This document shows positions 3,042 to 52,956 of a stretch of 64,000 nucleotides of DNA, piece after piece. The notes below the pieces were generated by a model. The model was not told the DNA's origin. It searched no databases and was given only the letters and a program-made list of their open reading frames with translations. The stretch spans positions 1 to 64,000 of the forward strand of contig JAUCBJ010004375.1 in NCBI GenBank assembly GCA_032718475.1, written 5' to 3'. The DNA comes from Nemertoderma westbladi. Its lineage: Eukaryota > Animalia > Xenacoelomorpha. The translations under genes were made by a program, and so were the position numbers. Numbering within the stretch: position 1 is the stretch's first letter; each line of letters begins with the position of its first letter.

Positions 3042-3140
3042 CTGAAATTAAATAATAAACACATATAATAAGAGCCAAAACCTCTTATTCGAAAAGGTAA
3101 ATAAACCCATTCATGCTGTTCCCTTTGAACCCACTCACAC

Positions 3141-5162: not shown

Positions 5163-5181
5163 CACACTGTTCCCTTAGAAC

Positions 5182-30400: not shown

Positions 30401-31678
30401 CCTAATTATTTCAGGTTCATCGACTATAGTAGGGAGTCTTTTGACCTGGATAAATTGTTCTATGGGTTCTGCACTACCTAAGTCTGTGCTAGTTAGCTGT
30501 CTTTTAACAGCTGGGGGCAAATCAGGCAATTTGCGACGGTGAGATGTCTTTCTACGCCTACTGAGACGAGATCTATTTCTTCTGCCTTCAGGATCGGTGG
30601 TCTCGCCTTCCTCCGATGATGTGTATCCTTGGCGTTTGGGAGTAGATTTTCTCATCATCTGCATTTGATTAGCAGTAAACTGTTTATTTATACTGTCTTG
30701 TGTCTCTTGCAGATTCTCCAACTCCAGTTGGGTAGTCTGCTCAGATGCTCTCCTTTCTGCTTCTGCCACTGCCTTTGCCACCTTTGCTTCTGCCGCCGCT
30801 GCCCTTCCTTTTGCTTCTACTTCTGCCGCCGCTGCCTTTCTGTCTGCTTCTGCTATTGCTTCTGCCGCCTTTCTGTCTGCTTCTGCCACTGCTTCTGCCG
30901 CCTTTCTGTCTGCTTCTGCCACTGCCGCTGCTGCTTTCTTTCTGCTTTCGATTAGTTTTCTCTTTACTTGTTCTTCTTGGACTCTAACGAGGCGGAGTTT
31001 TTCATCACATTTAGCTTGTTCTGCAGCTAACATTTCCGCATCGATTGCGTCCAACACAAGCTTGGTTCCTTCACTATTAGGGCGAAGTCCAGACAGTCGT
31101 CTCCTCAACTCTTCGTCTCCTACGAATCGCTGATAGTCTGACAGATAGATGTCAATGGCATCTCTAGTTCGTGGCTTCTCTGCTGCTGTTAATTCGCTTT
31201 CCACTTCGCTTTCCACTTCGCTTTCCACTTGGCTTTCCACTTCGCTTTCCACTTCGCTTTCCACTTGAGAAGAAGTGGCGTCGGTTGATTCTTCAAAGGT
31301 TGGCCGCTCATCATAAACCGTATCCGCCATCTTCGCTCCGCGTTCGGGCGTCCGCTCAACAGTCTCCGAACTACTGGAGCTATCGGGCTGCTGGGAACTA
31401 GGTTCTTGGCTAGGATGTCGCTGCTGTTTGACAGCTGCTTCCTGATCCCGCTTAACTTGGGCCCGAGTGCCTATGGCAGACCTACGGCGCTTCACTAACT
31501 TCGCAAATTGCGAAATCGCTTCTACCAACCTAGGTTCTGACACAACTACTGCAGGGGTTGCCCTTCTTACAGTAGGAGGGGTCTCAGACCTCGGTCTGGG
31601 ATTCTCTACACTTTGATCTGAGAAACAGGCTGTTGTTTCTAAAAGACTATCTGACAGAGTTTGCCTTGTGTCAGCCAT
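27464..31678 (-). CDS. Element B Gag-protease polyprotein (1404 aa) with RT, RNase H and integrase deleted
   Basis: Coiled-coil N-terminus, BEL Gag core (KFNGDEMKWLPF...EKLRFL), CALC/CYNC/CAKC zinc knuckles, protease ALLDSGS. It then runs directly into WRHRPEMINLADIASRG...WLGGP, the end of the RNase H region. Confidence 0.9.
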   Translation of the reverse strand: MADTRQTLSDSLLETTACFSDQSVENPRPRSETPPTVRRATPAVVVSEPRLVEAISQFAKLVKRRRSAIGTRAQVKRDQEAAVKQQRHPSQEPSSQQPDSSSSSETVERTPERGAKMADTVYDERPTFEESTDATSSQVESEVESEVESQVESEVESEVESELTAAEKPRTRDAIDIYLSDYQRFVGDEELRRRLSGLRPNSEGTKLVLDAIDAEMLAAEQAKCDEKLRLVRVQEEQVKRKLIESRKKAAAAVAEADRKAAEAVAEADRKAAEAIAEADRKAAAAEVEAKGRAAAAEAKVAKAVAEAERRASEQTTQLELENLQETQDSINKQFTANQMQMMRKSTPKRQGYTSSEEGETTDPEGRRNRSRLSRRRKTSHRRKLPDLPPAVKRQLTSTDLGSAEPIEQFIQVKRLPTIVDEPEIIRPVVPKVTSVLETPALPELNSKFPLHSTTLPVPGGTVQENTPVQIAEREINNLSPVVPRQPATMLATPASAVEWVEEGRRGMNLLLGQMQETVHQLKGTVRESRAELQEVQQSIALERDKLVNIQNGIPIPPVTLCQPVRPEVLHAQGVEPTRIYAASEVETPITNPIKGDYRPVINDIPYRPDNDPRNLYTDNSILNNTMAQESFTRQMARTEARQAVKVGEIVKFNGDEMKWLPFNEYYKDSIQNSVLSNGEKLRFLIKCLEGPPKLMALKFIGHPDGLRQVWDTLNIRYGNKDNIAKYLYAKLVAPRHFLSSEIIEFSDEIQEICRQLDWLGKSHEYQSSMVIGAVVSTLPKGGVCTRWDKKVLYMNEQQRRSPTMADLMSFLDIEVKLQLIRQSREKTSENKVSEKPVSRRRIIPVCYTDDGESQASQEEDSGKDTAKSYYDNKTYKDVSKYKSRTSDRREQVTTTPPTSPKRIHGRKPEERTRVHNVNQVKVSNIKPKCALCDGPHRLSACAEFLKKSMADRRGVLWDKRLCYNCLRRGHQRRTCYSDARCAKCGEKHHSLLHTEFERNSPSQVSEPELHVQFSDVNDTDQGSEWEGFYTDEFSDANESCYLINTTVYRALTYEKDTDEFTPTPFDKQPSWKIPTSNIGIREFPVVQVRVHGLNKSYIVNALLDSGSTGTFIDQELAEDIFAGQPKFRTLLNMSGVIQVWKSTITADYYVGALSTPQDKLGAQSIRSVKMVAIKNFATTQADLYNWDEDESIQHLKIPRFQTDYPGVQILIGQNAHEALETLEKRPAQPQPLQTYAVRTRVGWYFTGPSRRTLEERLPSERLYQINGLEVESSEVDELTEGTPYSSDNDDINSNEDQWRHRPEMINLADIASRGATPQERIDTPGWLGGPDSLSKEEDEWPPHLTTAESRQAKGAEKVTRQPNHPAGRLCLLERDQKLSGNYGRQDTLPTTTSLIRQISRDSIT

Positions 31679-33055
31679 GTTTGATTGTACAGTCGAATGC
31701 CTACTGCTATATTACAGTTAAAGCAAGTCTAGTAATTCAGTATCACTGTTAGCCTAATAATTAATTACCGATACTGCTACTCAGTGTAGCGTGATATATA
31801 TATAATATATTAGAATAACGGTATGCTTATAATATATATATAAGTATTGTAAACTAGGTTTGTCACAGGGTACCGGTATATAAATTTAGCACAGATATAT
31901 ATAAATATATAATAGGCCTATAGTGAATACCGGTATACAGCTTACACTTATAGTATATATAAGTATAATTACGGACTAGATTAATTACAGAGTACCGGTA
32001 TGATTTCAGCTCAAATTTATAGAGATAAATATAATAAGCCTATGGTAAATACCGGTATGTCAATTATCAATTATTTTAGAATAATTGAATTTCTGAATAT
32101 TTAGGGTTACTTGGTTACTTTAACTTACTTTATTATCGTTATTTAAGCAGTAGTCCAACTGATATTGAGACCTAGTTGTTGTCTGGCAGGCCTATTATTT
32201 ATAAATCGTTTGAGTTGATTTATAATAGATATATACCCGTTTAAATGGGTTTTTGTCAATATTTGAAATAAATGTTATTATTTCTGGGGGAGTCACTACA
32301 CAGAAGCTGAACGCCTCTAAGTGAAGTGCTATTTATTTGACACTAAAACTGATAATTCTAATTTACCTAAGTTACTTAATACTACAAATTACTTACGATA
32401 CGGGTGAGATTAATTCTCTAATTAAACACAACAAAATATTACGTACGAAATTTTTAGGGTAATTTTACAGGAAGTCTACAAACCAGTCCAACAAAGGGTT
32501 AGATTTCTGGCTATTACAAAGGACAGGGTACTACGGTATTTGAAATAATAAGTAGTAGTAAATATATTGTACTGTCCAGATAGGAAAATACCACCGCCTG
32601 ACGACCTATAACCGTATCGCTATAGGTACTACGTTATGTATCACGGATTGTTCCTACCCAGAAGCTAATAGAGCTAACGAATGTGCCTATCAACCACTTT
32701 ACAACACAAATATACTGCCTACACTAATTACTTCGGAAAGCACTGTACACTAAACCCTAAATTAGGTACAAGTACCGGTATAACAAATAATCAGTAGTTA
32801 AATATACTTGAACAGTTAAAAGAACCACGGCATCTGCTGGAGTGACCGAAGCACAAAGTCGTCAGTCTTTACCTACGCCGAGCAGCCCTAATGTAGTACC
32901 GGGGTTAGTTTAACTATAACGGTATGTATAACAAGCACAATTACTGTAGGAATAAACTTGGGGACATGAATGTTGCGAATAATCGCATAAACTCTGAATA
33001 ATAAATATTACGCTACCCGTACAGAATACTCAAACAAATACAAACCAAACGCTGG

Positions 33056-33560: not shown

Positions 33561-33938
33561 TTATCTGAACAATCTGAGCAGGGTCACACGCCTTCTGCTC
33601 AATATTAGCCTACTAGTAAATAAAACTGACAGAAATAGACCTAAGTAAAATCCCAATAAAAACCAGGCGTCCCCGATTTAATATCGAGACCTACCGGTAT
33701 ACAATAATCAAAATCGAATAATACTAAATGTACTTGTACAGCAGTACCGGTACCGGTGATGACAGTTAGGCCTACTGACCTACAGAAGCACCGGTTCAGT
33801 TTTACTAGTCACTACGGTATTTTGCAACCTTATTGCCTACTGCAATAAGATTATAAACTGTTACTGTTCGACAGAACAGTATTAAACTGTATTTAATGCC
33901 TACACTTGCAACCTTATTGCCTACTGCAATAAGATTAA

Positions 33939-33949
33939 ATAACTGTTAC
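33939..33949 (-). promoter_or_regulatory. Non-tRNA primer-binding site of B (GTAACAGTTAT)
   Basis: Abuts the 5' LTR end. Exact reverse complement of the sense LTR segment 34703-34693. Confidence 0.75.
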
Positions 33950-35183
33950 TGTTCGCGCTTTTGAAGACCTTTAGCAGTTTAACCTGCCAAAATTTATATG
34001 TCTTTTAGTTAATTAACACACCTTTAGCATACGACAATATTTTATGCTAATAAACAAAACATTAGCCGAAGCCAGCCCATGCGCGATCATTCACCCGATG
34101 GATCTACACCCGGGAGGCTGAATTCGGATGCTTAGATTTTATTATTGCAGTGTAAGGTTGCAGTGTAAACCTATTGTATTATTCGATAGATCACTAATAT
34201 GTAATTTCTGACAGATATTATTAACTTTCGGGAAATATTAACAGTTCCTTTAGGACGTGGCGCTCTATCTATTTAAACAGAGCTAGGACTTATACTAAAC
34301 GCAACGATAAGGCTTATGATTAAAGTATAAGTCGCATTCTTTAGGAAATGCTTTGTTACCAGTCACATCACACTCACAATCATGCACACTATTCTGCCGA
34401 CCGTCAGTATATTTGATCACACATGAAGAGAACAGCAATTGACTCAGGTAGTGTCTACTAAATAACATTAGATTCAATACACACCACATTGATATAAATC
34501 GCAATTGTTAGGTATAGCCGGTCTCTCTAACCTGTAGTGTATCAAGAAAATTGGGAATTAGGGTGATTTATCCGTATTATCCAAAGAGCAATATTTCCAT
34601 CAACAAATAGGTACAATTAATAACTGACGGTAAATAGCAGTACAAACAATATGATTAGTGCAGTTAAATTAAGTGAGGTAACACCGCCGCCGGTAACAGT
34701 TATACTTTCTATAATCTAAGCAGTTTACTAGAGTTCTTCCCTAAAGGCCGGTGTTTCTGGCTTAGACAGCAATAACAACAAAGTATCAAGTAAAAACAGT
34801 AAGACTGAACACTCTCCTTATGATCGACTAAAAGCTACACGTCGACAGGAAAAACCGCCCTGATTGGCCCAAGCCAAACAAAGAACCACGCGTCCAATGG
34901 CTGTTTCCATGTCAGCAACCAGCTGCTAGATGTCGTAATATGAATCATCACGGCTAAGCTGTGAAAGGTAGTTGGTGCATTACAAGTTTTTGCCTTACCA
35001 TGTCCGCCAAAATACGTATATAGCAGAATGATTTTTATGTCCGTTAAAACACCTGTAAAGGTACCTTGCGGGCGAGGGGAATATATATACAGTTAGAAAA
35101 CCTTTTTAGAGTATTCCAGCGCCTGGGGGGAAACTGGATTGCGAAGCAAAAGGGGCCAGTTATATCCCACAGAAGCTTTTACA
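33950..35183 (-). repeat. 5' LTR of element B
   Basis: Direct repeat of 23244-24477, flanked by TSD CTACC. Confidence 0.96.
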
Positions 35184-38100
35184 CTACCTTACGGCATATA
35201 TCTATAAATGATGACGTCATATTAATTATTCTATCATAAACAAATCTTGCGGAGTCGTCTGGTGATTTCGCAATTGATTGCGACCTCTCAGGTGGTTTAA
35301 ATCGATCTGGAAACTTGTTCACCTCACAACTATTTCGGTGTTCGCTACTGGGTTTACGAGTTTCCAACTTCGAACTTGTTTCATGAGATGTCGATTTGAA
35401 AACAGGCACATTATTCCTGATATTTACCTCCTTTATTATATTTGTATTGGTTGGATCCACTTGTTTTGGTTCAATATGGTCCATCTTCCTAGTAAGTTCT
35501 TCTTCATTTGGTTTTTGTTGATAGACGGAGTTTGGTATAACTGGACCCAACTTGGCCTTTGTCATTGATCGAGTCGTAACTAATGTTGTTGGTTGATCAT
35601 TAAAATCCAATTTGTCATCACCTATCCGCTCCATGTCAACTCCTAGTGATTGAACTGATGAAACTTGAATTTCTGGACTTGATTTACGGATTTTCTCAAC
35701 CTTAACTTCTGCCTCTGCTGGAAGAATTCCTAACTTACAATCGAATAATGGGGGCCATAATTCTATGGATTTACTCAGGAACTCTGGGCCACGTAACCAA
35801 AATTTCTGCACTTCGGGTTTGCAAAAGTCCTGAGGCATCATCCCCCTTGAGGCGATATCTGCTGGGTTGACTGTACCTGGACAATGCCTCCAATCTTCCT
35901 TAATGGAATATTCTAGAATTTGTGCGCGTCTGTTAGCAACAAAAGTTTTGAATTGAATGTCATCATGGTTTATATAGGTTAACACTAATGTCGCATCTGT
36001 CCAATAGGTCACAGTTATGTCACTTTCGATTTCGCGTTTAATTAATTTTGCAACTCCAATAGCGATCGTAGCTGCTTGAAGTTCAGCTCGTGGTATCGTC
36101 ATAAATTTGTTTGGCATAGTTTTCGCCTTCGATGTTACAAATGATGTTTCAAAATGCCCGGGATGAGTTTCTCTGCGGAAATATGCGACTACTCCAAGTC
36201 CGTTGCAACTAGCATCACAAAAACAGTGTAATTGTAATGATGTAGGAAACGCCATTTGCTTTGGAAAATAGACTCTCGGCAATTCTAGTGTCTCAAGTGC
36301 GGGTAGTTGATGTTCCCATTTATTCCACTGATCAGCGTGTTCTGTGTGTATTGGTTCATCCCATTCTAATCCAGCTTGCCATATTTTACGTAATTCGATA
36401 CGTGCCTGTAAAATGATAGGGCTGACAAAACATAACGGATCAAATAACCGACTCATCTTTGACAGACAGATGCGTTTCGTTAATGTTGCATCATTTGGCT
36501 CAATTCTCACACGGATTTTTAAACTGTCATTATTCGGATCCCATGACAACCCAAGAACCTTCGAAACTGGTATCGGTTCGAATTCTAGTTCAATCGCTCC
36601 GCTCCCACGATCCTTTTCAGGAAATGAAGCAATCAAGGCCGTCGAATTAGAGATAAATTTTGTAAGGTGAAAACCCCCATTGGCTAGACAGTTTTGAAGT
36701 CCGTGTGCTACCTCAATCGCTCGACATTCTGTATCACATGACTTAAGGCCATCATCAGTATAGAAGTCCTTTTTCACTGTATCAACAATCTCCTTGTCAA
36801 AACTATCAGCTTGTCGTATAGCTGTTTGTTTTAATGCAAAAAGAGCGCCATTTGGACTATCCCTTACACCAAATGTCCTCACCAACATCTGATAAGTAGA
36901 GGGTTCGCCAGACAAATCCTTATTCTGATACCACAAAAACCGAAGACTGTCATTATCTCGTTTCAATGCATACACTTGATGGAACATTGCCTCAATATCG
37001 CAAGTAAAGGCAATGCTCCGCTGTCGAAATCTCATTAGAACTCCTATTAAATAGTTATTAAGATTTGGACCATCCATTAGCTGTGAGTTTAGTGACATCC
37101 CGCGGTATTTTACATGACAATCACATACTACTCTCACTCTTCCAGGCTTGTTGGGGTGAGTTACATAGTGGTGCGGGAGGTAGTAAGTCTGGTCACTGAT
37201 AACGTCAGGGTGCTCCATTTTTACTGCATACCCTTTTTCTATGTAATTATCAATTTGGGCACGATATTGATCATGTACCACTTGATTGCGTAGAAGGCGT
37301 TCTCTAATAGATTGTAAACGACGTAGAGCTAATGGTCTATTATTAATTAACTTAGGTACATCATCACGCCAAAGCATTCCAACTTCTTCATTCTCCGACA
37401 TGGCTACGTCATAGCTGTCCGGTTCCACAGTGTCCTGTTCTAACCACTTCATCACCCTTCTATTCATTTCATTGTCAATATCTAAAAATTCGTATGCTTG
37501 TTCTAGCTCAGTTATACATGAAGCTGGGTTTTTAATGGTTTCTATGGAAGTGACTCGAGTTTGTATTAATAAATTTGTAGAAATGGGTAGGATCTCTGCA
37601 ATATACGGCTCGTTCAATTGTTGTAGACTGGACTCTAAAGTCATACCATCATGATCATGATCACCATCAGAAACAGTGTCATCAGAGGCACTAAAAATTT
37701 CGTCCAATATACTGTCATTTTCTGATGCACTGTACTGTAATTCCCTGTCATACTGTGAATCATTGTCACACTGTGAGTCATCAGAATTTGTATCCTTGTC
37801 ACATTTAGAGTCACTATCAGAGTGTGAGTCCTTGTCAGACTGTGAACCACTGTCAGATTGTGAGTGATTGTCATAAAGTGTGTCATTGTCACAACGTGAG
37901 TCATTGTCACAACGTGAATCATTGTCACACTGTAATGTTGTAAAGGACAATTCTTGGTTACTAGGCAATATCGAAAAATAATCTCTAGCCTTTGAAATAT
38001 AAGTTTCATCAGTAGTTCCGTCGTCTTCACCAGGATCGTGTATTGGTGCTCTAGTATACCACCCTATTACACTACGACTAGCATATGGCTTACCTGGTGT

Positions 38101-40131
38101 TGGTATAGCTGGACGTGTTTCCCAGATTTGATGTATATTGAATTGGTCTAATCCAATAAGCATAGCTATATTGCGATAATTAACCTTACACTCAGGTATT
38201 CCCAGAGAACAGAAATACTCACGCTCTTCTGGAAATGGAGCTGGGACCGGGCCTAAAAGGTTGATAAAATGTTCCATTGCATGGAATGTCAGATTTTCCA
38301 AAGGTAACATATCCCTCTCAGCTTGAGTATGGAGGTGTCTTGGAAGCAAAGAGTCTAAGGTGATTTTGATTTTTGTTACAGGCACAGCTTGTCTCCCATG
38401 TATCGAACTAATATGATATTCCATACATTTACCTTGCTGGACATCCGTAACAACGCTAGCAACTTGTTTATCTATGTAACTATTTGTGGACGCTGGATCA
38501 AGTATGGCGTATATACATTTAGTGCCAAGTTCACCGCGAATACGCACCGGCACCACACTAAAACCTGCTGACTGAGTTTGTGTTAGCAGAGTTATACTAG
38601 GGTTTGGGCCACTCGCTGTCTCGGAAATCACCGTATCAGTTCTCGTTTCTCCATCTGAAGAACCTGATTGCTCGCTGATAGTGTCTGTTCCGATACCTGT
38701 GAATGTCACATTGCGTCTCATGGTGTTGGTGTTTTTCAACACTAATGTTGGGTGATCAGCACGAAACTGCTTTGTAGGTGTATGTTGTTTTGTATGTAAT
38801 AACTGGTGATGTAACCTACCACAATTGTTACAACCCTTATTAAGTGTGTTCGGGCAATCTCGACGTTTGTGTCCTTTTTCCAAGCACTTCCAACAAGCAT
38901 TCAGGGATCTAATCGCCAGACGCCGCTGGTCTATATTCAATCTGGTGAAACTAGTACAATGTTGGAGTTTATGGTCCTGATAACTCTTACCTTTCTGGAA
39001 ACAATATTGACAACCTCGGAAGTCTGATGCCAGTTCTTGCCGCTCTAACGTTATTCCAATAGGTGCAGGTACCTTCTTATCTGGTTTTGAAGAAATTGCA
39101 TCAGCTACCGAATTAAAAGTGAACTTTGATCGTTCGGGAGTAAAAGTGGTCTTTGGTTTTCCAACTGGACGTTTCTCTACCTGCAGGTATTCTTCGGAAT
39201 AATTCGATCTGAGTTCAGCAAGGGCCTCGCGGGAGATTAATTCATAGAGATGGCTCAACCGTAATGTTTGACCTCGGTCCTCTATCTTGCTTTCTAGTTT
39301 TCTCCATTTCTGTCGGTGTCTCAAATCTAATCGCCTTATTATATCCTTAAGTACATCAGGACGGTCTCCATAACCTTCACAACCTACAGTGGGAAGGATA
39401 TGGATTGCATTTTGTATGGAATCTGCGAGCTTTAGCAGCTCATATGGGGTTGTGACTGGTCCGCCATTTCCTAACTCTTCCACTATAGACATCGCCATCT
39501 TAGTTTTGTTGCCATAGATATCACTTAATCGTTCCCATGAATGCAAAAATGCTCGAGGATTGCCGGTAAATGAATAAGCTAAACCACGAGGTTCCTTATC
39601 TAATAACTGTAAAAGATAATGAAATTTCTCAGTTGCTGTAAAGTCTTTAGCAATAATCTGTGACTCAATATACTCCTTAAAGGTCCTCCAGTGTTTTGGG
39701 TCTCCTGAAAAACGGGGAGGTTTCTGAGGTGGTAATCCCTGGCGTGCCGCCCATCGAGAAATCTCTGTCACCATATCAGCCGCTACTGGAATCGTCTCTA
39801 ATGTTTCTGGCTTCTGTGTTGACATGCGCAATAATGTTTTATCTTTCCTTGGCTTAGAATACTTACCTGTTCTTATTTCCTTTTCATTTCCTTGATCACT
39901 ATCGTTATTATAATATTGAAAAGGATGTGACCTGCCAGGCCAGGTTTGTTGAGTGTAAGCTTCTCCATCCATGGAGTCCGTGTTATATTGAAATCGATTA
40001 AATTTCGCATTTCGGTTTTCAGATCGCGCAACCTTGTCACTAACTTCTTGAACTCGTTGCAACACTGGTTCAGTGAACTCCCTCAGAGTCTCCTTTAATT
40101 GTTCCATTGTCACCTTAGTTTCTACTACTGG
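35184..40131 (-). pseudogene. Element A gag-pol middle part: Gag core, protease, RT, RNase H
   Basis: RFSGDPKHWRTF, three Cys-His knuckles, ILDPAS protease, YLPHH, DIEAMFHQV, FYTDD, CFCDAS, TIPRAEL, YWTD, NPADIASRG. About 19 aa are missing before EVGMLW relative to D. Confidence 0.93.
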
Positions 40132-42334
40132 TGTTACGGTATATGGCGCTGTATCCATATTATTAGTCATCATGCAGTATGCAATATTAGTCCGTTATGC
40201 AGTATGCAATATTAGTCCGTTATACTGTATGTAATATTAGTCCGTTGTGCAGCATGATATTTTAGATAAGGCATAATAACGCAGTGGTATTTAGATAGGG
40301 AAATCGAAACACCCATATATTTGAATCCATCCATTTTGTATAGTATGTAGCCCTACCTACGTAATTTTGTATTAGGTTATATGTAGATAGTTCCAGGGTA
40401 AGTTTATTCGGACCCTGGATTCCGTGCTTGCTGATATTAGTTTTAGTAGGGCTAGCATATAGGGACGCTGTCCTGGCCATTCAGCAGCCAGAGACGTGAA
40501 CCATTACCATATATGGTAATAATTCGAGGAAGGGGAGCAAATAGGGCTACAATCCGGCCTCCTTATTGGACTAGCTGCTTCCAGGTTGGTCTAGTGCTAG
40601 CACGGACTGGAGAGCCAATAAGAAAGCGATTGAGTCACCCTATTGCATCACCCCATCCGGATCACCTATAAATTGGCGGTGTGCCGGTAGAGCCTCACTC
40701 TTATCACATGACACCTAGCCTTAGCACCTGTCTTACTGTTTTTCTTGATACTTGTATTTTTCTGCAATTTGCTAATTTGATTAATTTCTTGGAATGATTT
40801 GCTAGTGCGATTACTCTTGCTTGTGTTTCTCAATTAATTCCTGTCGATTACTGCTAATTACAACTGAACTATGATTTCTACCTTTTGATTAATGGTTCTA
40901 TGTGATTCTTTTCTGCGCAATAATCCTAAGGGATTCCTGAGACTGTCAGACTTTGTGATTTGCATGCGCCGCTACGGTAGCTATTAGCATAATGGAGGGC
41001 TAAGGCGCCAGTGGGCGGTGGGCACATCGGGGGGTTGAGCGACTAAGGGAGAGCAGAGGATTCAAAGGCAGGCAACGCTGGCGGGGGTCAACGTTGCGGT
41101 CGGGCAACTTGCGTGCAACGGGCAGACCTATCGCCGGTACAGTAATTAGGGGGCTGATGATCCAGGTTTCGTCTCTATTTAGTATTAGGGGGCAGGAATC
41201 AGGTTAGTTAGGAGTCCCATATGTACCCGTGAGAGGCCTGCACGTGTTACAGCGTATTAGAGCGTACAACGTTAAATGTAGAGTACGAATAGTGAGTCGC
41301 ATAATTGTGGACTATACAGTAGTTAACTGCATAATTGCGAACTGTAATTTCTGACGCTGATTGGTGTGTTATTGAAGTGTGCCTATGATTATGAATGTTT
41401 AGGTAGGCGCCCCCCTTTTCTTTGATTGATTTCTATTTCTTAGTTACAATAATTGGTTACTGATTAGGTCAAAGTAATACGGCAAAATTAGGCTATTACT
41501 AGCGAAACTTGTTGCGTAATAAATTAGAATTACGTATTCTGGAACTCTTAGTAATTAGTACGCTGTTAAATATTTGTGACTGTAATTAATTAGTAAAAAT
41601 TAAGAATTAGTACGCAGCATAGCGGAGAGTAGCTAAAGTAATAATTAGAGTACTGTAAACTATTCACGCTGAGCGGTTATTTGCATTAGCGGGCAATCAG
41701 CTAGATTGTACTATTCGGTACGCACGATACGCTAGTAATTTGCTGGTCTAAAGCCAGCTGCAGGCGATTTTAGACCCGGAGTGATGTTATTTACGTAGGA
41801 ACAGATACTGTACCGTTTTGATATTTAAATATTCTCGCATTCACACATTACGTTAGGGAACCTCCAGTATTCGCGATTAGAAAGACGTAGGTAATAGCGT
41901 GCTTTAATAGTGATAAAATTAGGCGTAAGAATACTCTGAGTGCAAGGCCTCTCGCACTCGTCTTAAGTAAGCTTAGGGAGCCGACTCGGGTTTATTGTTT
42001 TGGTTATTCCCGCGTGGCTCATAGATTCGAACAGTTAGCTCTCTATCGAGCGATCGGTAGAGAAAGGAACAAGCGATTTTGCAGGAGTTGTGTAAATTTA
42101 GTAAATATATTAGCGTACGGCAGATTAGCGCCATCTAACGATAAGTAGCGGTTTTGTATTTAGCAACCCTTACAATTTAGTAATATCACGCTCCTGATCC
42201 CCTTTACTTAACAGTAGAGCAGTTTTGTGTCTTATTGGTTAGACGAGAACTTATTAGATTGGCAGAAGGATATCAACGGGTATTGGTCTGTTCAACAGTT
42301 CTGCTGTTAGTATAGAGGTCGCGGTTGTTTATCA
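40132..42334 (+). repeat. 5' LTR of element D
   Basis: CCAAT near 40615, TATAAA at 40667-40672, AATAAA at 41518-41523, 25-bp tandem repeat x3 at about 40171-40250. Confidence 0.96.
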
Positions 42335-42346
42335 GTAACACGTGCA
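42335..42346 (+). promoter_or_regulatory. Non-tRNA primer-binding site of D (GTAACACGTGCA)
   Basis: Abuts the 5' LTR end. Exact reverse complement of LTR 41239-41250 (TGCACGTGTTAC). Confidence 0.78.
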
Positions 42347-43525
42347 TTTATTGGCTGTTGCTTGCAGCAGTCGATAGTGTATTCTTAGGCTGATTAGTAG
42401 TATCATAGTATTAGGCAATAAATTAGAGCACGTGATCGTCTGCTGTAGGCTATAGGCTAGCGTACGGTAAGACATTGAGCATATTCCTTTAGGTTGTTAG
42501 TTTAGATTACTGTATTCACTGGCTGCGTACAATAGTACAGTAGTACATTAGGCTGATTGCTGTTACTGCGTACGGTAGAAGGGACATTTGTTTTGCCGTA
42601 CCACACATACAGTATCATTAGGCTGTTAGGTTGGTGTACTGTTTTACTTACTGTACTGCATACGGTGGATGTACGGTAGTGCGTTTTGCTAATTGCGAAT
42701 ACAGCAGTTCCTTAGGCCTTAGGGCAAATTGTAATTAGTAAGTTTTTTGAAATTTTTAGCTAGGTTTGCGAGAATTCAGTTTCGGTCAAAATTATTTTGT
42801 AAAATTCTAGAGTTTTTGTACCGGTATGTTAGGTAACCGCTTAGTTATTTTATACCATCTGGAGATACATGGCAAGACGGAACTTCTGAGTTTGGGGTTC
42901 GTGTGGGTCTGCGGGTTCGGTTTGCAATCAGCGGAGAGCCTGAATCTTTGGACGCGGACGTGGAATCTCACAGCAAACAAGGTTAGTTGTTCTGTTGGCA
43001 CCAATGTGTTTGTGGAAGCAGTAAAAAATTATCGGTTGTTTAACTGCGAAGCTGAACTCAATTTATTAGTTAGGATATTTAGGTTTAGCCGGCCATGGTT
43101 TTTTGAATCGCTCAAGTTAGAGAGAGAGTTAGAGAGAGTCGCAACCCGAAGATGTAGCCACGCGCTAGTGGATACATATAATATTTGAAACTAAAATTAC
43201 GTTGATTAGAGCTATATATAAAATTAGAAATATTCGGGCGGCAAGTTTATTTTGAATATTTTGTATTAGATTCAAAGTTATTTTGTGCTATACCGGTATT
43301 TAATGCTATATAGTAGCTATATAATAATATTTTTGTTTAAATATTGTGTTAGTATTTGCTATAACTATATACCCCATTAAATTCACAATATTGCATTGCG
43401 AATTTATTTGACATTTGGACCAACTGATTATTAGACAAATAATTTGACCGTATTTCGGTTAAATTATAATAATATCTCGAACTTTTGCGAGATAATTTTG
43501 CCGGAAGGCAAACATTATTTAGACT

Positions 43526-46500
43526 ATGAGTGTCTCAGACAAAGAGGCACTAGAGGACAGCTACGAGACGGCGGCTGGACCGCCGACTGACGATAGCGTC
43601 AATATTACTGTTGACGACAATGCCGACTATGACGACGCAGCGAGCGACGCTGACGTAAGTGAACAGGAGGACGAGACAGTGACTAGTGAGGAAGAACAAC
43701 AACCTCAAGTAATAGTATTAGGATCCCCTACCGCTACTGATAGGAAGGACTGTACGGCAGCCCGGACAGAGGTGAGTGATAGGGAGAGTAGTGTAGCAGA
43801 AGCGAGAGCCCGGAGCCCGGTTTCCAGACCTGTGGGTATGGTAAGTGCCGTGGTCCCGACGGCTGTAAGGAGTACCCGTAGTTCCCGAAATAATCCTTCA
43901 AGTCCACCGAGTGTAAGTCAGGTAAGTGATAGAGAGTTCGACACTGCGATGAAGAAGAAACTTCGCGCGCATGCCGGACATATAACCCGGACGGCGGACA
44001 AGGTAAGGAAAATGTTAGCTGACTCAGCGAACATCGGGAGGGTAGAGTTAGCAGAGATTAGAAGAGAATATAACTCAGCGTTATTCAAGCAGACGGAGGA
44101 GCTTGCAGTCCTAGCAAAGAAGGCAGTAGAGTCTCAGTCGAGCGACGTGGCGACGAGGATTTACGACAGGGTTTTAGCAGCCTTGTTGGAGCACCGCGAG
44201 TTATCGGAGCGATTCCGACGAGTTAGGACGGAAAACTGGCTGCTATGGGCATCACAAATGCAGGCGACTCAGGTGAGTGACGCAAAGTTAAGAGACTTAG
44301 TGGAGCGAGAAGAGATCCAAGATAAAGAGGAGCGCCGTTATCAAAGGGAAGTTACTAGCTGGTTGATGCAGAATGGAGTGGTGGTACCGGGTCAGGTGCT
44401 ACCAACCACGGAGAACATCCAACAGAGGACGTTGACTCCACCTGATGACGCATCTAGAGACAGCGGCGATTCCCAGGTTAGTCACGCGCGAGGTAAGGTA
44501 ATATGTGCTAGATCCCTTGTTTCGCACAACTCGGCGGAGGAGAGAAGACGCCGACTGGACGAACAGCAGGCGGAAGTTTTGTGTGCATCGGAAGCACGGA
44601 AGGAAGCTGAGCGGGAACGGGAACGAACACGTAAGTTAGACGCGAAGTTGCGCGAACTGGAAGATAAAGGTAAGCGTGAGCGAGCGGAACGCGAGCAGAA
44701 GGAACGCGAACTTCAACTTGAACGCGAACGCAAGGAACGCGAACTCGAACTTGAACGCGAGCAGAAGGAACGCGAACTCCAGCTCGAACGCGAACAGAAG
44801 AAACGTGAACTCGAACTTGAACGCGAACGTAAGGAACGCGAACTCGAGATCGAAAAGGAGCGACAAGCGTTGTATGAAGAAAGGGCGCGTGTGGAAGAAG
44901 AGGGCGCAGCGAGACGAGCGAGGGAAGAAGAAGAACGTAAACTGGCGCAGTTGGAAAGTGCGAGATTAAGTTTAGAGAGCGAAGAACGGACTAGGAAGGC
45001 GAATGAAATCGCCGAGAAGGGGATGCGAATGATCGAAGAATGTGGGGCGAGTGTAGGGACTGAGTTGCGAGAACTGTTCGCACTGCAGAAGGCCGAACAG
45101 GAAGCGAGAACTCCGACCATACGCGAGTCGACGACGACCAGAATTCCTATACCCGGTCCAGCTATTACGAGTACACGGATCGCTAAACCATTCTCTACAT
45201 ATCGCACGCCAGTTGGTATTAGTGCTTCACCCATCGCGCAGAATCCACGTCATCGGAACACCGCACCACTATACACCGAACGAGAGAATGAAGAGTTTAG
45301 AGAAACTCCGACGGGACGAGTACTTGGCGAACCGAACCCGCGGGTTTGGAATACGCGGACGGAGCGCCGACCCAGTTCGACGGAGAACTTCCGGGTTAAA
45401 CCGGAAGAGGGATCATATGAGAGACAGCGGATTACTCAGATAGAGCCGACTATACAACAGAACCCTAGCCAGGAATTTATTACGAGGGATGAGTTAAGTG
45501 CTAGTTTAGCGCAAGCTATATCGCCGCACATCCAACCTATAACGGACATGCTTAGCAACCTACGGTTAAAGGAAGCAGCCCAGGTAAGAAGTAATTCTAA
45601 TCCCAGCAGGCCTGAGTTAGATAAAGTACAGCCTAGTCAACGAGTACGCATATCGGAGGAGACTATACCACATAGACCTCAGGTAAGGACGCCTGTCCCG
45701 AATATTCATAATCCCAATTTCGAAAACTCAGCCGAGAAATTTATTCAGGAGGCTTGGGTCAGGGCCTCGGGGCGCAAACCATCGCGAGCGCTAAGGACTG
45801 ACACCGAGTCAAGTGATGAAGAGGAAGAAATGAGACGTCAGAAGTCCCGAAACTATAAGGAAAGAAGGACCGACGCGGAGCAGGTAAGTTGGAACCACCG
45901 GGAAAGGACCAGACTTAACAACCCTGCGGAACTAAACCATTTGTTAACCCGGAACGACGCAACCCTTAGGGACATAGGTAAGTTTGCTGCTAGGCAAGGA
46001 CTGCCGACGCAACAACCCCAGAAGTTTATGGGCAACCATAAACACTGGAGGACTTTCAAAACCTATGTCGACGAGCAGCTAACCAACAGCACCTTTACTC
46101 CCAACGAGAAGTTCAACTATTTGCTTCAGATGCTCCATCGAGAACCTAGAGCCATTGCTGATAACTTCGTCGGCAATGAGAGAGCATTTGAGTTAGCGAT
46201 GAAGACGCTTAGTGACATCTACGGGAATAAAACCAAGATGGCGCAGTCAATAGTAGAAGACTTGGGTAAGGGCGGAAGGATTACAACTCCGTTAGAGCTG
46301 TTGAACTTAGCGAACGCTATTTCGAACGCATTGGATATCTTGAAGACGGTGAATCTACCTCATCATGGTGATCACGCCGAGGTTTTGAAAGGCGTAATAA
46401 GACATTTAAACATGCGTTATCGACAGAAATGGCGCAAATTAGAGAATAAGTTGGAGGGCCAAGGTAAAGTATTGACACTTCAGCATATTCATGACATGAT

Positions 46501-49500
46501 AGCCACAGACGCAGTAGCAGAGATGAAATCAAACTTCTCAGAAGAGAATATGAGGGAGTCTAAACCTGTTACCGGTAAGTCTATGGTAAGTTTTGACGAT
46601 GACAGGACCACTGTGACATTTAACTCAGTAGACAGATATAATTCGAATACCCCAGCCTTTAGATCAGACTCGCGAGTATGGTCAGGTGAGCGGTTAGATA
46701 GACCTAGGTTAAAGCAACAGGAGTTGCCGGATGGATTTGTAGGTTGCCAATACTGTTTACTAAAGGAGGTAAGATCTGACGACCATAAGTTGGATAGTTG
46801 CAGACGGTTCAAAGAATTAAATTCGGAACAGAGAAGAGTTCAAGTGCGGACGTTGGACACCTGTTGGGCATGTCTTGCGCCAGGTCATGTACGGCGGCAG
46901 TGCCCGAACAGCAAGGACGGATGCATGGAATGCGGCAGACTACATCACAAGTTGCTACATGCGGATTTCCACACCCCAACGGACCGTTACTTACAGCGAA
47001 ATCCTCACAGGAAGGGGAGCAAAGAACCCGTATCGATAAGAAGGAATACGTACACTGGCATCCAGGACGATGGTTATCAACCAGGTTCGTCGGACGAGGA
47101 TGGCGAGTCGAGCGCGAGAGAAGTGACCTGCCAAGGTTTCACCGCGGATAGTTCATCGACCAGCGCGCGGACGTATTTATCATCGGCCACGTCGGAAATA
47201 TTTAGCGTGATTCCGGTGAAACTCACTGGCGATAAGGGATCGAAGCGAATATATGTGATGTTGGACACTGCGTCCACATTATCCTATATCGACGAGGAAG
47301 TGGCGAGAGCTGTTTCTAGCTTCCAGAACGCCGAGGAGATCCAAATAGAGTTGAAGTCTATGCACGGGGTAGGAGACCTCAAGGGACACAGAATTTCGGT
47401 AGAACTAGATTCCCTACTTCCGAGAGACCAGCATACTCGACAAGAACGGAAAGCTTTGCCATTGGACGGATTTAAGTGTCTAGCTATGAAGGGATTCGGC
47501 AGGCAGTTAGGTAAGGTGCCGCTGATGAGTCCCATAGCACAGGAGTATTTTGACAAGCTCAGGATACCCAGACACCAGGTAGGTTATAGGAATGTTTCTA
47601 TGTTAATTGGTGCAGAACAGCTGATCGCACACCAGATATGGGAAACGAGACCAGCTGAGCCGCATGTCAATGGACCGCATGCCCATAGGACTATATTAGG
47701 TTGGTATACACGAGTACCCATGTCTTATGAGTTTACAGGTGGCGACAAGCCAATGGATAGATACGACGAATTACAGCCTATAACCCAACCACCGTTAGTA
47801 GAACCACCAGACATAGACGAGTTTAGGAGAACCTGTATTGACCACTATAGTGACTTTAGCGAGTCGGACGAGGAGTTGATTCCCGATAATGTTAGGTTGT
47901 CGGAACCACTTCACAACGACCGGACAGATAGTGAACCCGAGGACTACTGTTATCAGACCCGTGGGTCTGGTTCAGCGGCCCACGCTACCTATTTGACTAA
48001 CGTTTTGACTTATACAGACATAGTGGAGGGTCAAGTGGCTAAATATCGAGACCTAGACATTTTCCAATACAGTGAGGAGGAATTACAGAAGGAATTGATA
48101 CGCCAGGACCTCGAGACAGGAGCCAGAACCGTCGAATGGCTGGATAGGGACGCAATGGAACCCGGTGGATATGACCTAGTCATGTCTACTGATGAGAAAC
48201 GGTCGTTGGAGATGATGGAAGACACCATACGTCTACTACCGACTGGACATTTTGAAGTTGGAATGTTGTGGCGTCGACAACCACCTAAGTTGGAGAACAA
48301 CTACAATTTAGCCTTGAAAAGATTAAACGGAGTAAGGGCTCGGTTGTTGAGGAATCCAGACATTAGGGAGAAGTATTGCGCCCAGATCAACAACTATTTC
48401 GCCAAGGGATTTGCTGGGAAGGTAGAGGACCCTGACTTAGTGACAGACCAGACTTATTACCTTCCACACCACTATGTGACTCACCCTGACAAGCCAGACA
48501 AAGTCCGAGTAGTCAACGACTGCGCAGCAGTCTATAGAGGTATGTCCCTGAATTCAGAGTTGATGGATGGTCCCAACCTGAACAACTATTTGATTGGAAT
48601 ACTGTTGCGTTTTAGACAGCGGCGATTCGCATTTACTTGTGACATCGAGGCGATGTTCCACCAGGTAAGAGCCTGTAAGGCAGACCAGGATAGCCTTCGC
48701 TTTCTCTGGTACGAGAATGAAGACTTATCCGGCCCAGTGGTTACATACCAAATGTACGTTAGGATATTTGGCGCCCGCGATAGTCCGAACGGCACGCTGT
48801 TTGTTCTAAAGAAAACGGCAACAGCCCAGATTGGTAAGTACCCAGTAGAGGTTATCGAGTCCATCTTGAGAAACTTCTATATGGACGACGGATTGGTGTC
48901 CAAGGACACAGCGGAACAAGCCATAGAAGTGGCTCATGGCCTGCAAGAGTGCTTGGCTACAGGGGGTTTTCCTCTAACCAAGTTCACTACTAACTCGGAG
49001 GCCCTATTAGAGTCGTTCCCGGTGAAAGATCGCGGGAGCGGAGACATAGAATTGGGGGTAGAACCAATCCCCATGGCGCGAGTACTGGGACTCGCTTGGA
49101 ACCCGAACTCAGACAAGTTCCAGGTAAGAGTTAGATTTGAGCCCAGTAGCCCAGACAAAGTTTTGACTAAGAGGATTTGCTTATCGACATTGAGTAGACT
49201 ATTTGACCCGATGAACTTTATCAGTCCGGTTATATTACAGGCACGAGCGTGCATGAGGAAAATTTGGTTGTCCGACGTAGAGTGGGACGAACCAATATCT
49301 CCTATACATGCAAAGCAGTGGAGGGAGTGGGAAGCCGAGTTGCATCTATTGAAAAATATAGATGTACCCCGTTCCTACTTTCCGAATCAGCTGGTATTTC
49401 CAGCTGATTTAGAGCTGCATCTGTTCAGTGACGCAAGTGACACCGGCTTTGGTATGGTAGCCTACCTTCGCCGAGAGGTAAGTCAGGACAAGTTTGAGAC

Positions 49501-51899
49501 GGCCTTTGTGACTTCTAGATCAAAGACAATGCCGGTCAAATACATGACTGTCCCTCGTGCAGAGTTACAGGCGGCTGTAGTTTCAGTCGAGGTAAGTAAG
49601 CAAATAACTGAGGAGTTAGACACGACATTGACCTTATTCTATTGGACGGACGCATCCTTGGTTTTAGTATACATTGCGGCCGACAATATTGCACTAAAGA
49701 CATTTGTGGCCAATAGACGCGCTCAGATCGTTGATTTTTCGACGAAGGAACAGTGGAGACATTGTCCGGGAGTGTTGAACCCGGCCGACATAACTTCGAG
49801 AGGTGCAATGCCGGCGGAATTCTGTCAGGAAGAGTCGCAGGAGTTTTGGTTGCATGGACCTGATTTTCTAACGAGGACACAGGAACATTGGCCAGAGCGA
49901 CTAAAGATAGTGACCAATCCGATGCCTGAAGATGCAGAAGTCAAAGTGGAGAAAGTCTCTAAGTCGAAGTCTAAAGCCAAACTTGAGTCATTGGAGCGGC
50001 CCGAAGAGTCATTGGAGCGGCCTGAAGAGTCATTGGAGCGGCCTGAAGAGTCATTGGTGCGGCCTGAAGAGTCATTGGAGCGGCCCGGAGACCTGTCAGA
50101 CCAACAGACTTACGTGACTACTAGGTCCGGAAGGGTAAGTTATGACATCAAACCACCCTTACAGACTAAACCGGAGTCACAATTGGTAAGTGACGGACAG
50201 AAAATGACCGACACAATGGAGTCTTTGGTTTCCAAACCTGCGGGTTTGGATTCGAAACTTCCATTAGTTAGCGGACAACCGTCACTGGCATTAGAGTCAT
50301 GCAGTGTTTATGACAAATTACTAAATTCGTCTGCCTCTTGGCTGACAATTTGTAAAAGAACTGCGTGGTTAAGCCGATACATTTTGTACCTTTGTTTAAA
50401 ACATTCGAAACATTTGAGAGAACCATTGAGCACCAATAGTGAGCGAATTCGGAAATTGAAACAACCTCTGACAGAGGATGAGATTGATCAAGCGGAATTA
50501 AGGCATTTGAAACATTATCAAATGTGTGCCTTCCCTAAAGAATTCCATCTATTATCGGCTCAACGACCAGTTCTCTATGAACCCCTTAGAAAATGGAGTC
50601 CATTAATCCATAAGGGTTTAATTTGTCATAGATCGAGAATCCAGACTGTCGACATAAACTCACAGTTTAGGTTCCCAGTGATAATCCCTAGTCACCCAAT
50701 AGAATTGCAAAGAGCGATTCTATGGGATATACACAAGAGGTTACATCACGCGGGAAGGTTACACTGTTTGTCGACTGTTTGTTAGACAGCGATTCATTCT
50801 ATTGCAGCCAAGCAGGGCAGTCGGCACTATGTATGACGCCTGTCTGGTTTGCAAGAGAGTGAACGCCAGAGTATTGGAACAGGAGATGGCTGAACTCCCG
50901 GAAGCGAGAGTGCAGGCATATGACCCACCCTTTACGAACACAGGGGTGGATTGTTTTGGTCCGATTGAAGCAAAGAGTGGACGGCTGACCCACAAACGAT
51001 GGGGTCTGCTACTGACATGTATGGCTAGTAGAGCCATACACATCGAGCGTGTGGCAGACATGTCGACCAAATCTCTGCTCCTGGCCTTGAAGAGATTTAT
51101 GGCCAGGAGAGGACTAGTAAAGGCGTTCTACTCCGATAAGGGTACAAACTTTGTCGGAGGGAATAGCGAGTTGAACGCGGCTCATAAAGTAGCACAGAAT
51201 AAGGAAATTTCTGTAGCACTTTTGCCGCAACGAGTAGAATGGAGATTTAATACTCCAGAGAGTCCTTGGAGAGGAGGAAGTTGGGAGCGTTTGGTTCGCT
51301 CTGTGAAGCAGGCCATTGCCAAAACATTGCCTGTGAACAAACAACTTACCGACGACGAACTGGTTACAGCTTTCATTGAAATCGAGCATACCCTAAACTC
51401 GAGGCCGATAGCTATGTTGCCAGACGGTGTTGCATTAACGCCGAATCATTTGCTAATGCAGAGTCCAGCATTTCTTGTGCCGGCATCAGAACCCATTAGT
51501 GCCGACCTATATAGTCGTAAAAGCTGGAAAGTGACTCAATTAGTAGCGTACACATTCTGGGAATATTGGCGGGAATACTATCTTCCCACCATATCCACCA
51601 GAACAAAGTGGTACAAAACGGTTCGGAGTCTCCAAAGGGGAGATTACGTGTTGATAACCGAACCCATTGTCAAGAGAAAGTATTGGGAGACTGGAGTGAT
51701 CTTGCACACACACCCAGACGTGCAAAACATAGTGCGCACAGTCACTGTGAAAATTAGGTGCAAGTGTCCGCACCCAAAAAAGTGTAAAACTAATGGTTTA
51801 CACACCTTGGACCGACCGGTCCAAGATATCGTGTTATTAGAGGAGACACGTATCGAGACGGGAGATTATAATTTGTCTCCTGCCTCAAAACAGAGTTAG
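43526..51899 (+). pseudogene. Element D gag-pol polyprotein (Gag, PR, RT, RH, IN) broken by one 4-bp duplication
   Basis: The 2419-aa ORF has MLDTAS, FYMDD, LFSDAS and NPADITSRG. The integrase ORF 50802-51899 is in another frame. TGTT is duplicated at 50776-50783, and removing one copy restores HCLSTVRQRFILLQPS (A has HCLSFLRNRFVLIKPS). Confidence 0.95.
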
Positions 51900-52956
51900 T
51901 GTTAGACGCAACTCACTTCGTATGCATTCCTCGTATGCAAATACAAGGAAATGCATAGGAGCGGGGTTGTGGTGATTTGCGTTGAGTTTTGTCTGGTGGG
52001 TATCAAAACAAAATTTTATTTCAAAAGTGGAAAATTAAAAATTTTAAAATTAGAAAAGTGAACCCAAGACAATTCCAGACGCTGTGTATAGACGCGTTTT
52101 AGAATTTGTCTATAGATAACAGTAATTTGAAAAGTCGTGAAGCCTGGAAAATAGCATTTAGAAACCATGGTGACGGCTATATTACGTAGGAGTGTAAATT
52201 GAGTTTAGCAACTTCCACAGATTGGTGCCAACAGTGCAACTAAGGTGCTAAAGGTTAGTAGCACCAGAGGCGTGCACGGACCCCACTCAGTAGTTTGCAG
52301 GATGTGTGATGTTCGATTATCAAACCTGTGGGTTTGGTATAGTCGAGTATTGTGGCTATAGTCCTTTCTAACTACTGTAGTTTAGTACGAGTAATGGGAG
52401 TAGTTTGGGCATCAAAAAGTGAGTTGGTCACGGCCAGTTTATCTCCAAAGTTTTTGCGCTATGCATGGGAATAGGTTAGAGGATAGTTAGTTAGGAAGAG
52501 ACGGGATCTAGAGAGTCGAACCTGAACTGCTGGAAGGCGGGGGGGTTCGGGAGGTCTGTCCTTCGGCGACATCTAACTGATTTACCCACATTGTAGTTGG
52601 TTACGTAACGGCACTTATTGGGATATATATATGTATATACGCGTAACATAATGGAGAGGGATATTAGAGCGCAACCGCGCAGAGGATTTACTGCCAGAGA
52701 GGAGGCGGAGCTACCATTCGCGCGACCAGGATGTAAAGACTCTAACGTTTACTATCATGGGCGGTCCGTGATGGAGCTGAACGGAAAGTACAAGCCAAGT
52801 TATGATAAAGAATTACGGAGAGAAAGAATGAGAGCGTTGGGGGACCGGATGGAAGTCTTGCGGAGAGAGTATCGCACGCGGTATCCCTACGACTTTGCTT
52901 TGGACGTGTGTGACATCAGCGCAGATCCGGACGAGGAAATCGCATGACTATACCAT

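What the first reader, a model, noticed from the sequence alone, without database searches (positions are those of the whole stretch)
41239..42346. Three BEL/Pao families lack a tRNA PBS and each pairs with its own LTR: candidate self-primed reverse transcription
Seen: no element has TGG after the 5' LTR. D PBS GTAACACGTGCA (42335-42346) is the perfect complement of its LTR at 41239-41250 (12 bp). B PBS GTAACAGTTAT (33949-33939) pairs with 34703-34693 (11 bp). A PBS TTCAATTTTCATA (63109-63097) pairs with 63896-63884 (13 bp). In all three the duplex starts at the first base after the terminal CA, exactly where a primer 3'-OH must sit, and the three sequences differ, so the pairing covaries. Naive chance per element (LTR length/4^n) is about 1e-4, 3e-4 and 3e-5, somewhat higher with AT bias. 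Known: self-priming is established for S. pombe Tf1/Tf2 and proposed for related Ty3/gypsy chromoviruses, where the first ~11 nt of the mRNA pair with the PBS and are released by cleavage. BEL/Pao elements are generally described as tRNA-primed. Inference: an independent origin of self-priming in BEL/Pao. I know of no report of this but could not search.
Basis: partly seen in the sequence, partly recalled or inferred. Interest (0 to 1): 0.95.

Follow-up and report, generated by a model that had tools for sequence, protein, structure and literature searches.

The report
Self-made primers in BEL/Pao retrotransposons
Three nested jumping genes lack the usual tRNA landing site and instead carry 11-13 letters that pair exactly with the middle of their own terminal repeat, so they likely start copying themselves with a piece of their own RNA; in most relatives tested, the matching piece appears only if a predicted intron is spliced out.

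Summary
Observation confirmed. LTR ends are fixed by paired LTRs (plus target-site duplications for D and B). The 12, 11 and 13 nt right after the 5' LTRs of D, B and A are perfect complements of a site in their own LTR; cross-family matches reach only 6-8 nt; no TGG lies within 17 nt. B is a non-autonomous gag-protease element. Unlike Tf1, the site is mid-LTR, 470-570 nt below TATA boxes (D, A) and 740-1080 nt from the PBS; folding of the long leaders did not recover the duplex. Of 21 related BEL/Pao loci with both LTR ends readable, 19 have a 10-15 nt perfect own-LTR match (16 across a GT-AG junction, 3 contiguous), 1 has one mismatch and 1 has a TGG-type PBS; one family pair shows compensatory changes. 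Best reading: self-priming by an internal R-region segment, the window's elements being contiguous, intron-less forms. No RNA evidence. Self-priming is shown for Tf1 and predicted for copia TAR; seven literature searches found no BEL/Pao report, and ICTV lists tRNA priming. This scan noted the same idea before in other genomes (8 notes).

The parts
40132..42334 (+). Element D 5' LTR (2203 bp, TGT...TCA)
   Evidence: TSD ACTGG at 40127-40131 / 60414-60418
40667..40672 (+). TATAAA box of D, conserved in the related LTR E together with upstream ATTGG boxes; likely promoter
41239..41250 (+). D candidate self-primer segment TGCACGTGTTAC
   Evidence: same letters in 3' LTR at 59318-59329
41518..41523 (+). 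AATAAA of D, 267 nt below the primer, conserved in E; likely poly(A) signal
42335..42346 (+). D primer-binding site GTAACACGTGCA, directly after the LTR's CA
43523..50785 (+). D gag-pol ORF (DUF1759, CCHC, protease, RT YMDD, Pao RNase H domain PF05380)
50703..51899 (+). D integrase frame (DUF5641); a frame break splits the integrase zinc-finger region from the upstream ORF
52948..56091 (+). D extra ORF, 1047 aa, three CCHC-like motifs, no Pfam hit at E 0.01
58211..60413 (+). Element D 3' LTR, preceded by the purine tract ...TGGAGCGG
33950..35183 (-). Element B 5' LTR (1234 bp)
   Evidence: TSD GGTAG
34693..34703 (-). B candidate self-primer segment ATAACTGTTAC
33939..33949 (-). B primer-binding site GTAACAGTTAT
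33822..33870 (-). Second copy of B's LTR end plus PBS in the leader, with a PBS one base longer (33864-33853, GTAACAGTTTAT)
27464..31711 (-). B gag-protease ORF (DUF1759); RT, RNase H core and integrase absent
23244..24477 (-). Element B 3' LTR, identical to the 5' LTR
63110..64000 (-). Element A 5' LTR, 3' part (runs off the window)
63884..63896 (-). A candidate self-primer segment TATGAAAATTGAA
63097..63109 (-). A primer-binding site TTCAATTTTCATA
35179..40194 (-). A gag-pol, middle piece between insertions D and B (DUF1759, RT YTDD, PF05380)
18183..19950 (-). Element A 3' LTR (1768 bp), abutting a 35-bp satellite array
3141..5178 (+). E: truncated LTR related to D (about 70%); its primer-position segment 4236-4247 reads TTCGTGTCTTAC (4 of 12 letters differ); no PBS in the window

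Best explanation
These BEL/Pao retrotransposons likely prime minus-strand DNA synthesis with their own RNA: an 11-13 nt segment in the middle of the LTR is exactly complementary to the site right after the LTR, and is predicted to pair with it and be cut at its 3' edge to give the 3'-OH. Shown: the complementarity, its exact start at the LTR edge, the lack of TGG, its family specificity and its recurrence in relatives. Inferred: transcription starts upstream (TATA boxes in D and A), so the primer is an internal R segment with a 5' extension rather than the first 11 nt as in Tf1; the element's RNase H makes the cut (by analogy with Tf1); Gag chaperones the 0.75-1.1 kb loop; the PBS is re-copied from the primer each cycle, which keeps the two sites matched. 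In most relatives the primer exists only after a predicted LTR intron is spliced; D, B and A would be intron-less forms. B, which lacks RT, would be mobilised in trans while keeping this cis signal. A self-derived primer of any geometry: about 0.8; this cis, internal-cut version: about 0.55.
For: Anchored perfect matches of 12/11/13 nt against 6-8 nt cross-family. In LTR elements the bases after the 5' LTR are the copy of the primer (established retroviral mechanism, my knowledge). First set: 15 loci with both LTR ends give 12 junction matches of 10-15 nt, 2 contiguous of 10-11 nt, 1 TGG-type; random anchors reached the own value in 0-8 of 300 per locus (0 of 120 for L048; 265 of 300 for the TGG locus). 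An unconstrained GT/AG search picked consensus-like donors (mostly GTAAG/GTACGT) and pyrimidine-rich acceptors. Second set, fetched afterwards: 6 loci give 4 junction matches (11-12 nt), 1 contiguous (11 nt), 1 with one mismatch, no TGG. L088 and L090 differ at two primer letters with the matching two changes in the PBS. Short spliced model leaders form the duplex at probability 0.66-0.99 (30-nt 5' extension) in 8 of 10 relatives. AATAAA lies 11-97 nt below the primer in 11 of 12 relatives. Host contigs show a B subfamily with one extra base in the primer tract and a leader-position PBS with one extra base, not phased. One contig joins B's LTR end to the inverted primer region, as over-copying of an extended primer would give. 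D's RT and RNase H catalytic motifs read intact (motif names recalled).
Against: No RNA data: no transcription start, cut or strong-stop junction was seen. Global folding of the 0.8-1.7 kb leaders of D, B and A put 0 duplex pairs in the MFE in 9 of 9 models (mean pair probability 0-0.17); contiguous L058 also folds poorly (0.08-0.12) and L040 and L030 fail in some models. Core duplexes of B and A are weak (-11.7 and -12.0 kcal/mol). End-agnostic scan of 8 loci with a cut 3' LTR found no match in 4 (L011, L028, L053, L074), and L046 and L064 were unreadable. Host tRNAs and tRNA fragments could not be screened (no genome). The relatives come from few hosts and several are one family. An intron kept in the LTR while the primer needs splicing requires one spliced and one unspliced R copy, which a simple cis model does not explain.
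Confidence: 0.55

Rival explanations
1. The primer is element-derived but comes from another molecule or from the 3' R copy: a short LTR transcript, the partner RNA of a dimer, or an LTR-derived small RNA anneals to the PBS in trans.
For: Explains how relatives keep an intron in the LTR while the primer needs splicing; removes the need for a 0.75-1.1 kb loop that folding does not recover; B and D LTRs are very abundant in host runs relative to A's pol.
Against: Families match only their own LTR, which cis pairing gives most simply; short spliced leaders fold into the cis duplex in most relatives.
Confidence: 0.18
2. The pairing is a real RNA structure (packaging, translation switch or circularisation) and priming uses a tRNA half or other host RNA.
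For: B shows imperfect extra pairing beyond the 11 bp; D and B PBSs share GTAACA; one relative (L057) has a TGG-type PBS, so tRNA priming exists among the fetched loci; ICTV lists tRNA priming for the family (PMC8742986).
Against: About 15 different PBS sequences each match their own LTR within 0-4 nt of the LTR edge and change with it; a host primer would hold the PBS constant.
Confidence: 0.13
3. Exactly the Tf1 mechanism: transcription starts at the first base of the complementary segment, and the upstream TATA boxes serve another transcript.
For: AT-rich tracts lie about 20 nt upstream of the segment in D, E and A; L023 has a TATA-like box 31 nt above its primer; sharp 11-13 nt lengths recall Tf1's 11 nt (PMC7175516).
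Against: TATA plus ATTGG boxes conserved between D and E lie 572 nt upstream; three relatives have TATA-like boxes 124-135 nt upstream.
Confidence: 0.13
4. Chance match found after the fact.
For: B alone has a 2.7e-3 expectation and 5 of 120 under a lenient search.
Against: 3 of 3 window elements and 19 of 21 relatives.
Confidence: 0.01

Closest known systems
Tf1/Tf2 of Schizosaccharomyces pombe, Tj1 of S. japonicus, and the Tf1/sushi and Tcn1 chromoviruses (Ty3/gypsy)
   Same: No tRNA PBS; about 11 nt after the 5' LTR complementary to an own-LTR segment (PMC7175516, PMC4600332, PMC6317226, passages read).
   Different: Other superfamily. [quoted passage not shown]
TAR lineage of plant Ty1/copia (Houba, Osr-1)
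   Same: Self-priming predicted from the same criterion: at least 10 nt complementary to a region starting 0-5 nt after the 5' LTR (PMC6317226, passages); D, B and A meet it.
   Different: Copia domain order, plants; no splice-junction primer mentioned in the passages read.
Belpaoviridae (BEL/Pao; Semotivirus) as described by ICTV
   Same: DUF1759 gag, PF05380, DUF5641, PR-RT-RH-IN order, TG...CA LTRs, 5-bp TSD.
   Different: ICTV gives an 18-nt PBS for tRNA-Arg or tRNA-Gly, LTRs of 0.2-1.2 kb and genomes of 4.2-10 kb (PMC8742986, whole text); here no tRNA-type PBS, LTRs 1.2-2.2 kb, D 20 kb with an extra ORF.

Membership tests
BEL/Pao (Belpaoviridae) | Pao-type gag (DUF1759) and RNase H region (PF05380), integrase after RT with DUF5641 | tested here: met
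   for D and A; B has DUF1759 only and lacks RT and integrase
BEL/Pao (Belpaoviridae) | RT/RNase H closest to BEL/Pao proteins | tested here: met
   the 120 listed hits all carry PF05380, 36-42% identity; named ones from cnidarians, echinoderms, molluscs, amphioxus, fish
BEL/Pao (Belpaoviridae) | PBS complementary to the 3' end of host tRNA-Arg or tRNA-Gly (starts TGG) | tested here: not met
   no TGG before +18; descriptive rather than classifying feature
Named BEL/Pao clade (Suzu, Sinbad, Sparrow, Surcouf, Tas, Flow, Dan) | Grouping with reference elements in an RT/RNase H tree | not testable with these tools
   no named references obtained; D and A form a long-branch pair of unresolved position in a quick, unrooted tree
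Tf1/sushi chromoviruses | Ty3/gypsy chromovirus RT and integrase | tested here: not met
   BEL/Pao domains, no chromodomain hit
Tf1-type self-priming (mechanism) | At least 10 nt after the 5' LTR complementary to the own LTR, no tRNA PBS | tested here: met
Tf1-type self-priming (mechanism) | Primer is the 5'-terminal segment of the RNA | tested here: inconclusive
   TATA and AATAAA positions suggest an internal segment; start site not mapped
Tf1-type self-priming (mechanism) | Duplex forms within a larger leader structure | tested here: inconclusive
   not in predicted folds of window leaders; present in 8 of 10 spliced model leaders of relatives
Tf1-type self-priming (mechanism) | RNase H cut at the primer's 3' edge and primer joined to strong-stop DNA | not testable with these tools
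   needs RNA or particle data
Half-tRNA priming (copia type) | PBS complementary to an internal tRNA segment | not testable with these tools
   no host genome; no tRNA gene in the window

The most novel reading that the evidence does not exclude
A broad lineage of marine-animal BEL/Pao elements has dropped tRNA priming for a self-primer cut from inside the R region; in most members host splicing builds that primer at an exon junction, making splicing a licence for reverse transcription, and the window's long-LTR elements are intron-less forms that reach the PBS across a 0.75-1.1 kb loop.
Probability: 0.45. Interest if true: 0.85.

Novelty: new variant of a known kind. Interest (0 to 1): 0.72.

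Why it matters
If true, self-priming occurs in all three LTR-retrotransposon superfamilies, and the ICTV statement that Belpaoviridae are tRNA-primed fails for a large animal lineage. An internal or splice-built primer would be a new way to start reverse transcription and would tie RNA processing to mobility. It bears on whether hairpin or tRNA priming came first (raised in PMC3601003), would let these elements escape host control through tRNA fragments (inference), and explains why tRNA-PBS filters would miss such elements in annotation.

Tried and rejected
No host genome is held, so family-wide and host-tRNA tests were impossible. Sequencing runs: 7 listed, no RNA holder on record, all contigs; contigs cannot show RNA ends. 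Variant tables were cut (40 of 426 substitutions shown; none shown inside a primer or PBS), so they do not show conservation; only 1 substitution and 2 indels passed 2% in 111 bases, none inside B's primer, but flanks are equally quiet, so no selection is claimed. No sign of an intron-bearing B primer among the 10 of 12 loose ends shown. GT-AG joins did not lengthen the D, B or A duplex. E's predicted PBS is not in the window (only the LTR site itself matches exactly). Viral contigs gave no relative. Sequence and place look-ups in earlier notes were blank. The protein atlas did not answer for D's extra ORF. The careful tree did not finish; the quick tree left out L055 and 6 other loci without a segment over 250 aa, and is unrooted, so no origin or order of events is claimed. 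Of 80 loci in the first set, 30 direct-repeat pairs were viewed and 15 had both LTR ends readable (L006 dropped as a duplicate of L007; L048's end and the LTR starts of L039, L040, L058, L063, L072 set by hand); of 20 in the second set, 6 (L096's end set by hand); L086 had no defined end. Four primary papers were not held.

Full report
Layout. Self-comparison of the window and junction reading give a nest. Element A (- strand) has its 5' LTR ending at 63110 and its 3' LTR at 19950-18183 beside a 35-bp satellite. D (+ strand; LTRs 40132-42334 and 58211-60413; 4 differences; TSD ACTGG) sits in A's gag; B (- strand; LTRs 35183-33950 and 24477-23244; identical; TSD GGTAG) sits in A's pol. All three share a purine tract ending GGAGCGG before the 3' LTR. 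D and A carry DUF1759, PF05380 and DUF5641 and are 59% identical over RT-RNase H; B has gag and protease only. D has a frame break in the integrase region; A is interrupted by B and D and has a stop in integrase. The 120 listed homologues of D's pol all carry PF05380 at 36-42% identity, the named ones from marine invertebrates and a fish.

Observation. The bases right after each 5' LTR are perfect complements of a site in the own LTR: 12 nt (D), 11 nt (B), 13 nt (A), starting at +1 and not extending into the LTR's CA; cross-family matches are 6-8 nt. Order-2 Markov expectations are 1.7e-4, 2.7e-3 and 2.1e-4; internal positions reach the same length in 0 of 15855, 7 of 9451 and 0 of 4924. No TGG lies before +18.

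Position. The site is mid-LTR, 1084, 743 and 774 nt from the LTR end. D and the related truncated LTR E (3141 to about 5178, about 70% identical) conserve a TATAAA box with ATTGG boxes 572 nt upstream and AATAAA 267 nt downstream; conservation drops right after the site, and E differs in 4 of its 12 letters. A has TATAAAAG 469 nt upstream but no AATAAA downstream; B has AATAAA 549 nt downstream and no TATAAA upstream. The segment is therefore probably inside R (inference). Folding of nine leader models did not place the duplex in the MFE, which counts against a spontaneous cis fold, though long-range prediction is weak.

Relatives. An alignment of D, A and 35 homologues fetched 80 metagenome loci (best 80 of 506). 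Earlier notes of this scan suggested testing splice junctions, which I did. Fifteen loci had both LTR ends readable: 12 match an exon-exon junction of a GT-AG interval in their own LTR over 10-15 nt, 2 match contiguously (L034 10 nt, low complexity; L058 11 nt), and L057 has a TGG-type PBS and no match. Random anchors reached the own value in 0-8 of 300; related families (L015, L018, L055, L048; L030, L040) cross-match, and a few unrelated cells reach 11-12, so single 10-11 nt values are weak alone. A second set of 20 loci (host DNA inside bacterial bins) gave 6 readable: L088, L090, L092, L096 junction matches (11-12 nt), L084 contiguous (11 nt), L082 junction with one mismatch (10 of 11, not significant as a perfect match: 32 of 150), none with TGG. 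L088 and L090 differ at two exon-1 letters and their PBSs carry the complementary changes; with only 3 exon-1 letters the donor is ambiguous, the GTGAGT one being homologous in both. Of 8 loci with a cut 3' LTR, 4 gave a junction match (3 are repeats of families above) and 4 none. The loci come from few hosts and about 15 families. In a quick unrooted tree the self-matching loci spread across a 73-row clade and L023, L057 sits in another clade, and D and A form a long-branch pair of unclear place. Spliced model leaders of relatives fold into the duplex in 8 of 10 cases.

Host runs. Six runs hold part of D, none on record as RNA. Laid contigs show B and D LTRs at far greater summed depth than A's pol (not a copy number). 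Loose ends show a B subfamily with one more base in the primer tract (4 contigs in X1, 1 in X3) and a leader-position PBS with one more base (12 contigs in X1); the same longer PBS stands in the window as a leader duplicate (33864-33853). These are not phased. One X1 contig joins B's LTR end to the inverted primer region at 34693; its laid length is not shown, and a template switch at the inverted repeat could also make it.

Mechanism. In LTR elements the sequence after the 5' LTR is copied from the primer (established knowledge). A family-specific complement of the own LTR at that place is thus the expected print of a self-derived primer. I commit to cis pairing of an internal R segment with an RNase H cut at its 3' edge (0.55); trans or 3'-copy supply (0.18), a Tf1-exact 5'-end primer (0.13) and a non-priming structure (0.13) remain. 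Pairing in vivo, the cut and the enzyme are all inferred.

Known work. Tf1 uses its first 11 bases, cut by RNase H (PMC7175516, passages); Tj1 is proposed to do the same (PMC4600332, passages); Tcn1 and copia TAR are predicted to self-prime by a criterion that D, B and A meet (PMC6317226, passages; supplements not viewed). ICTV describes Belpaoviridae as tRNA-Arg or tRNA-Gly primed (PMC8742986, whole text). Four BEL/Pao surveys hold no hit for PBS or primer binding in the main text (PMC3118150, PMC554778, PMC6238403, PMC8556966; term searches). Searches for self-priming in BEL/Pao returned 5, 0, 6, 2, 0, 1 and 7 papers; those whose passages I read (PMC6317226, PMC3601003, PMC5443660) do not report it, the rest were seen as listings only, with titles on other groups. 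Subscription papers and Repbase Reports were not searchable. I recall, unverified, that a C. elegans Cer element was proposed to encode its own tRNA-like primer (paper not held). This scan already holds 8 unchecked notes of the same idea in at least 3 other genomes.

Verdict. Real feature; a new variant of a known kind of priming; sequence evidence strong, biochemical evidence absent. Interest 0.72.

Noticed in passing
window 52948-56091 (+) and 24981-25358 (-): D carries a 1047-aa ORF after integrase with three CCHC-like motifs and no Pfam hit; B has a related stretch (29% over 129 aa). Could be an accessory nucleic-acid chaperone.
   Followed up: partly
window 10221-18182: 35-bp satellite of about 226 copies; element A's 3' LTR abuts its end.
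   Followed up: no
window 33822-33870 (-): B's leader holds a second copy of the LTR end plus a PBS one base longer, which fits a sister subfamily's primer seen in host contigs; possible trace of recombination between subfamilies.
   Followed up: partly
window 40132-40137 and 42335-42340: D's LTR begins TGTTAC, so its PBS start (GTAACA) is also complementary to the LTR's first 6 bases; B's PBS starts with the same 6 letters.
   Followed up: no
window 3141-5178 and 5889-6878 (-): D-like LTR E is cut at its 3' end next to a non-LTR-type RT frame (PF00078).
   Followed up: no
window 40930-41230: GC-rich block strongly conserved between D and E just upstream of the primer site; function unknown.
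   Followed up: no
window 8262-9394: 24-bp tandem array of 46 copies; a 42-base piece recurs at 3103-3144 directly before LTR E.
   Followed up: no
L092 1617-6336: A second LTR element (331-bp LTRs), apparently on the opposite strand, is nested in the BEL/Pao locus.
   Followed up: no
L081-L100: Animal BEL/Pao retrotransposon contigs are present in 20 loci of bacterial MAGs, likely host contamination.
   Followed up: no
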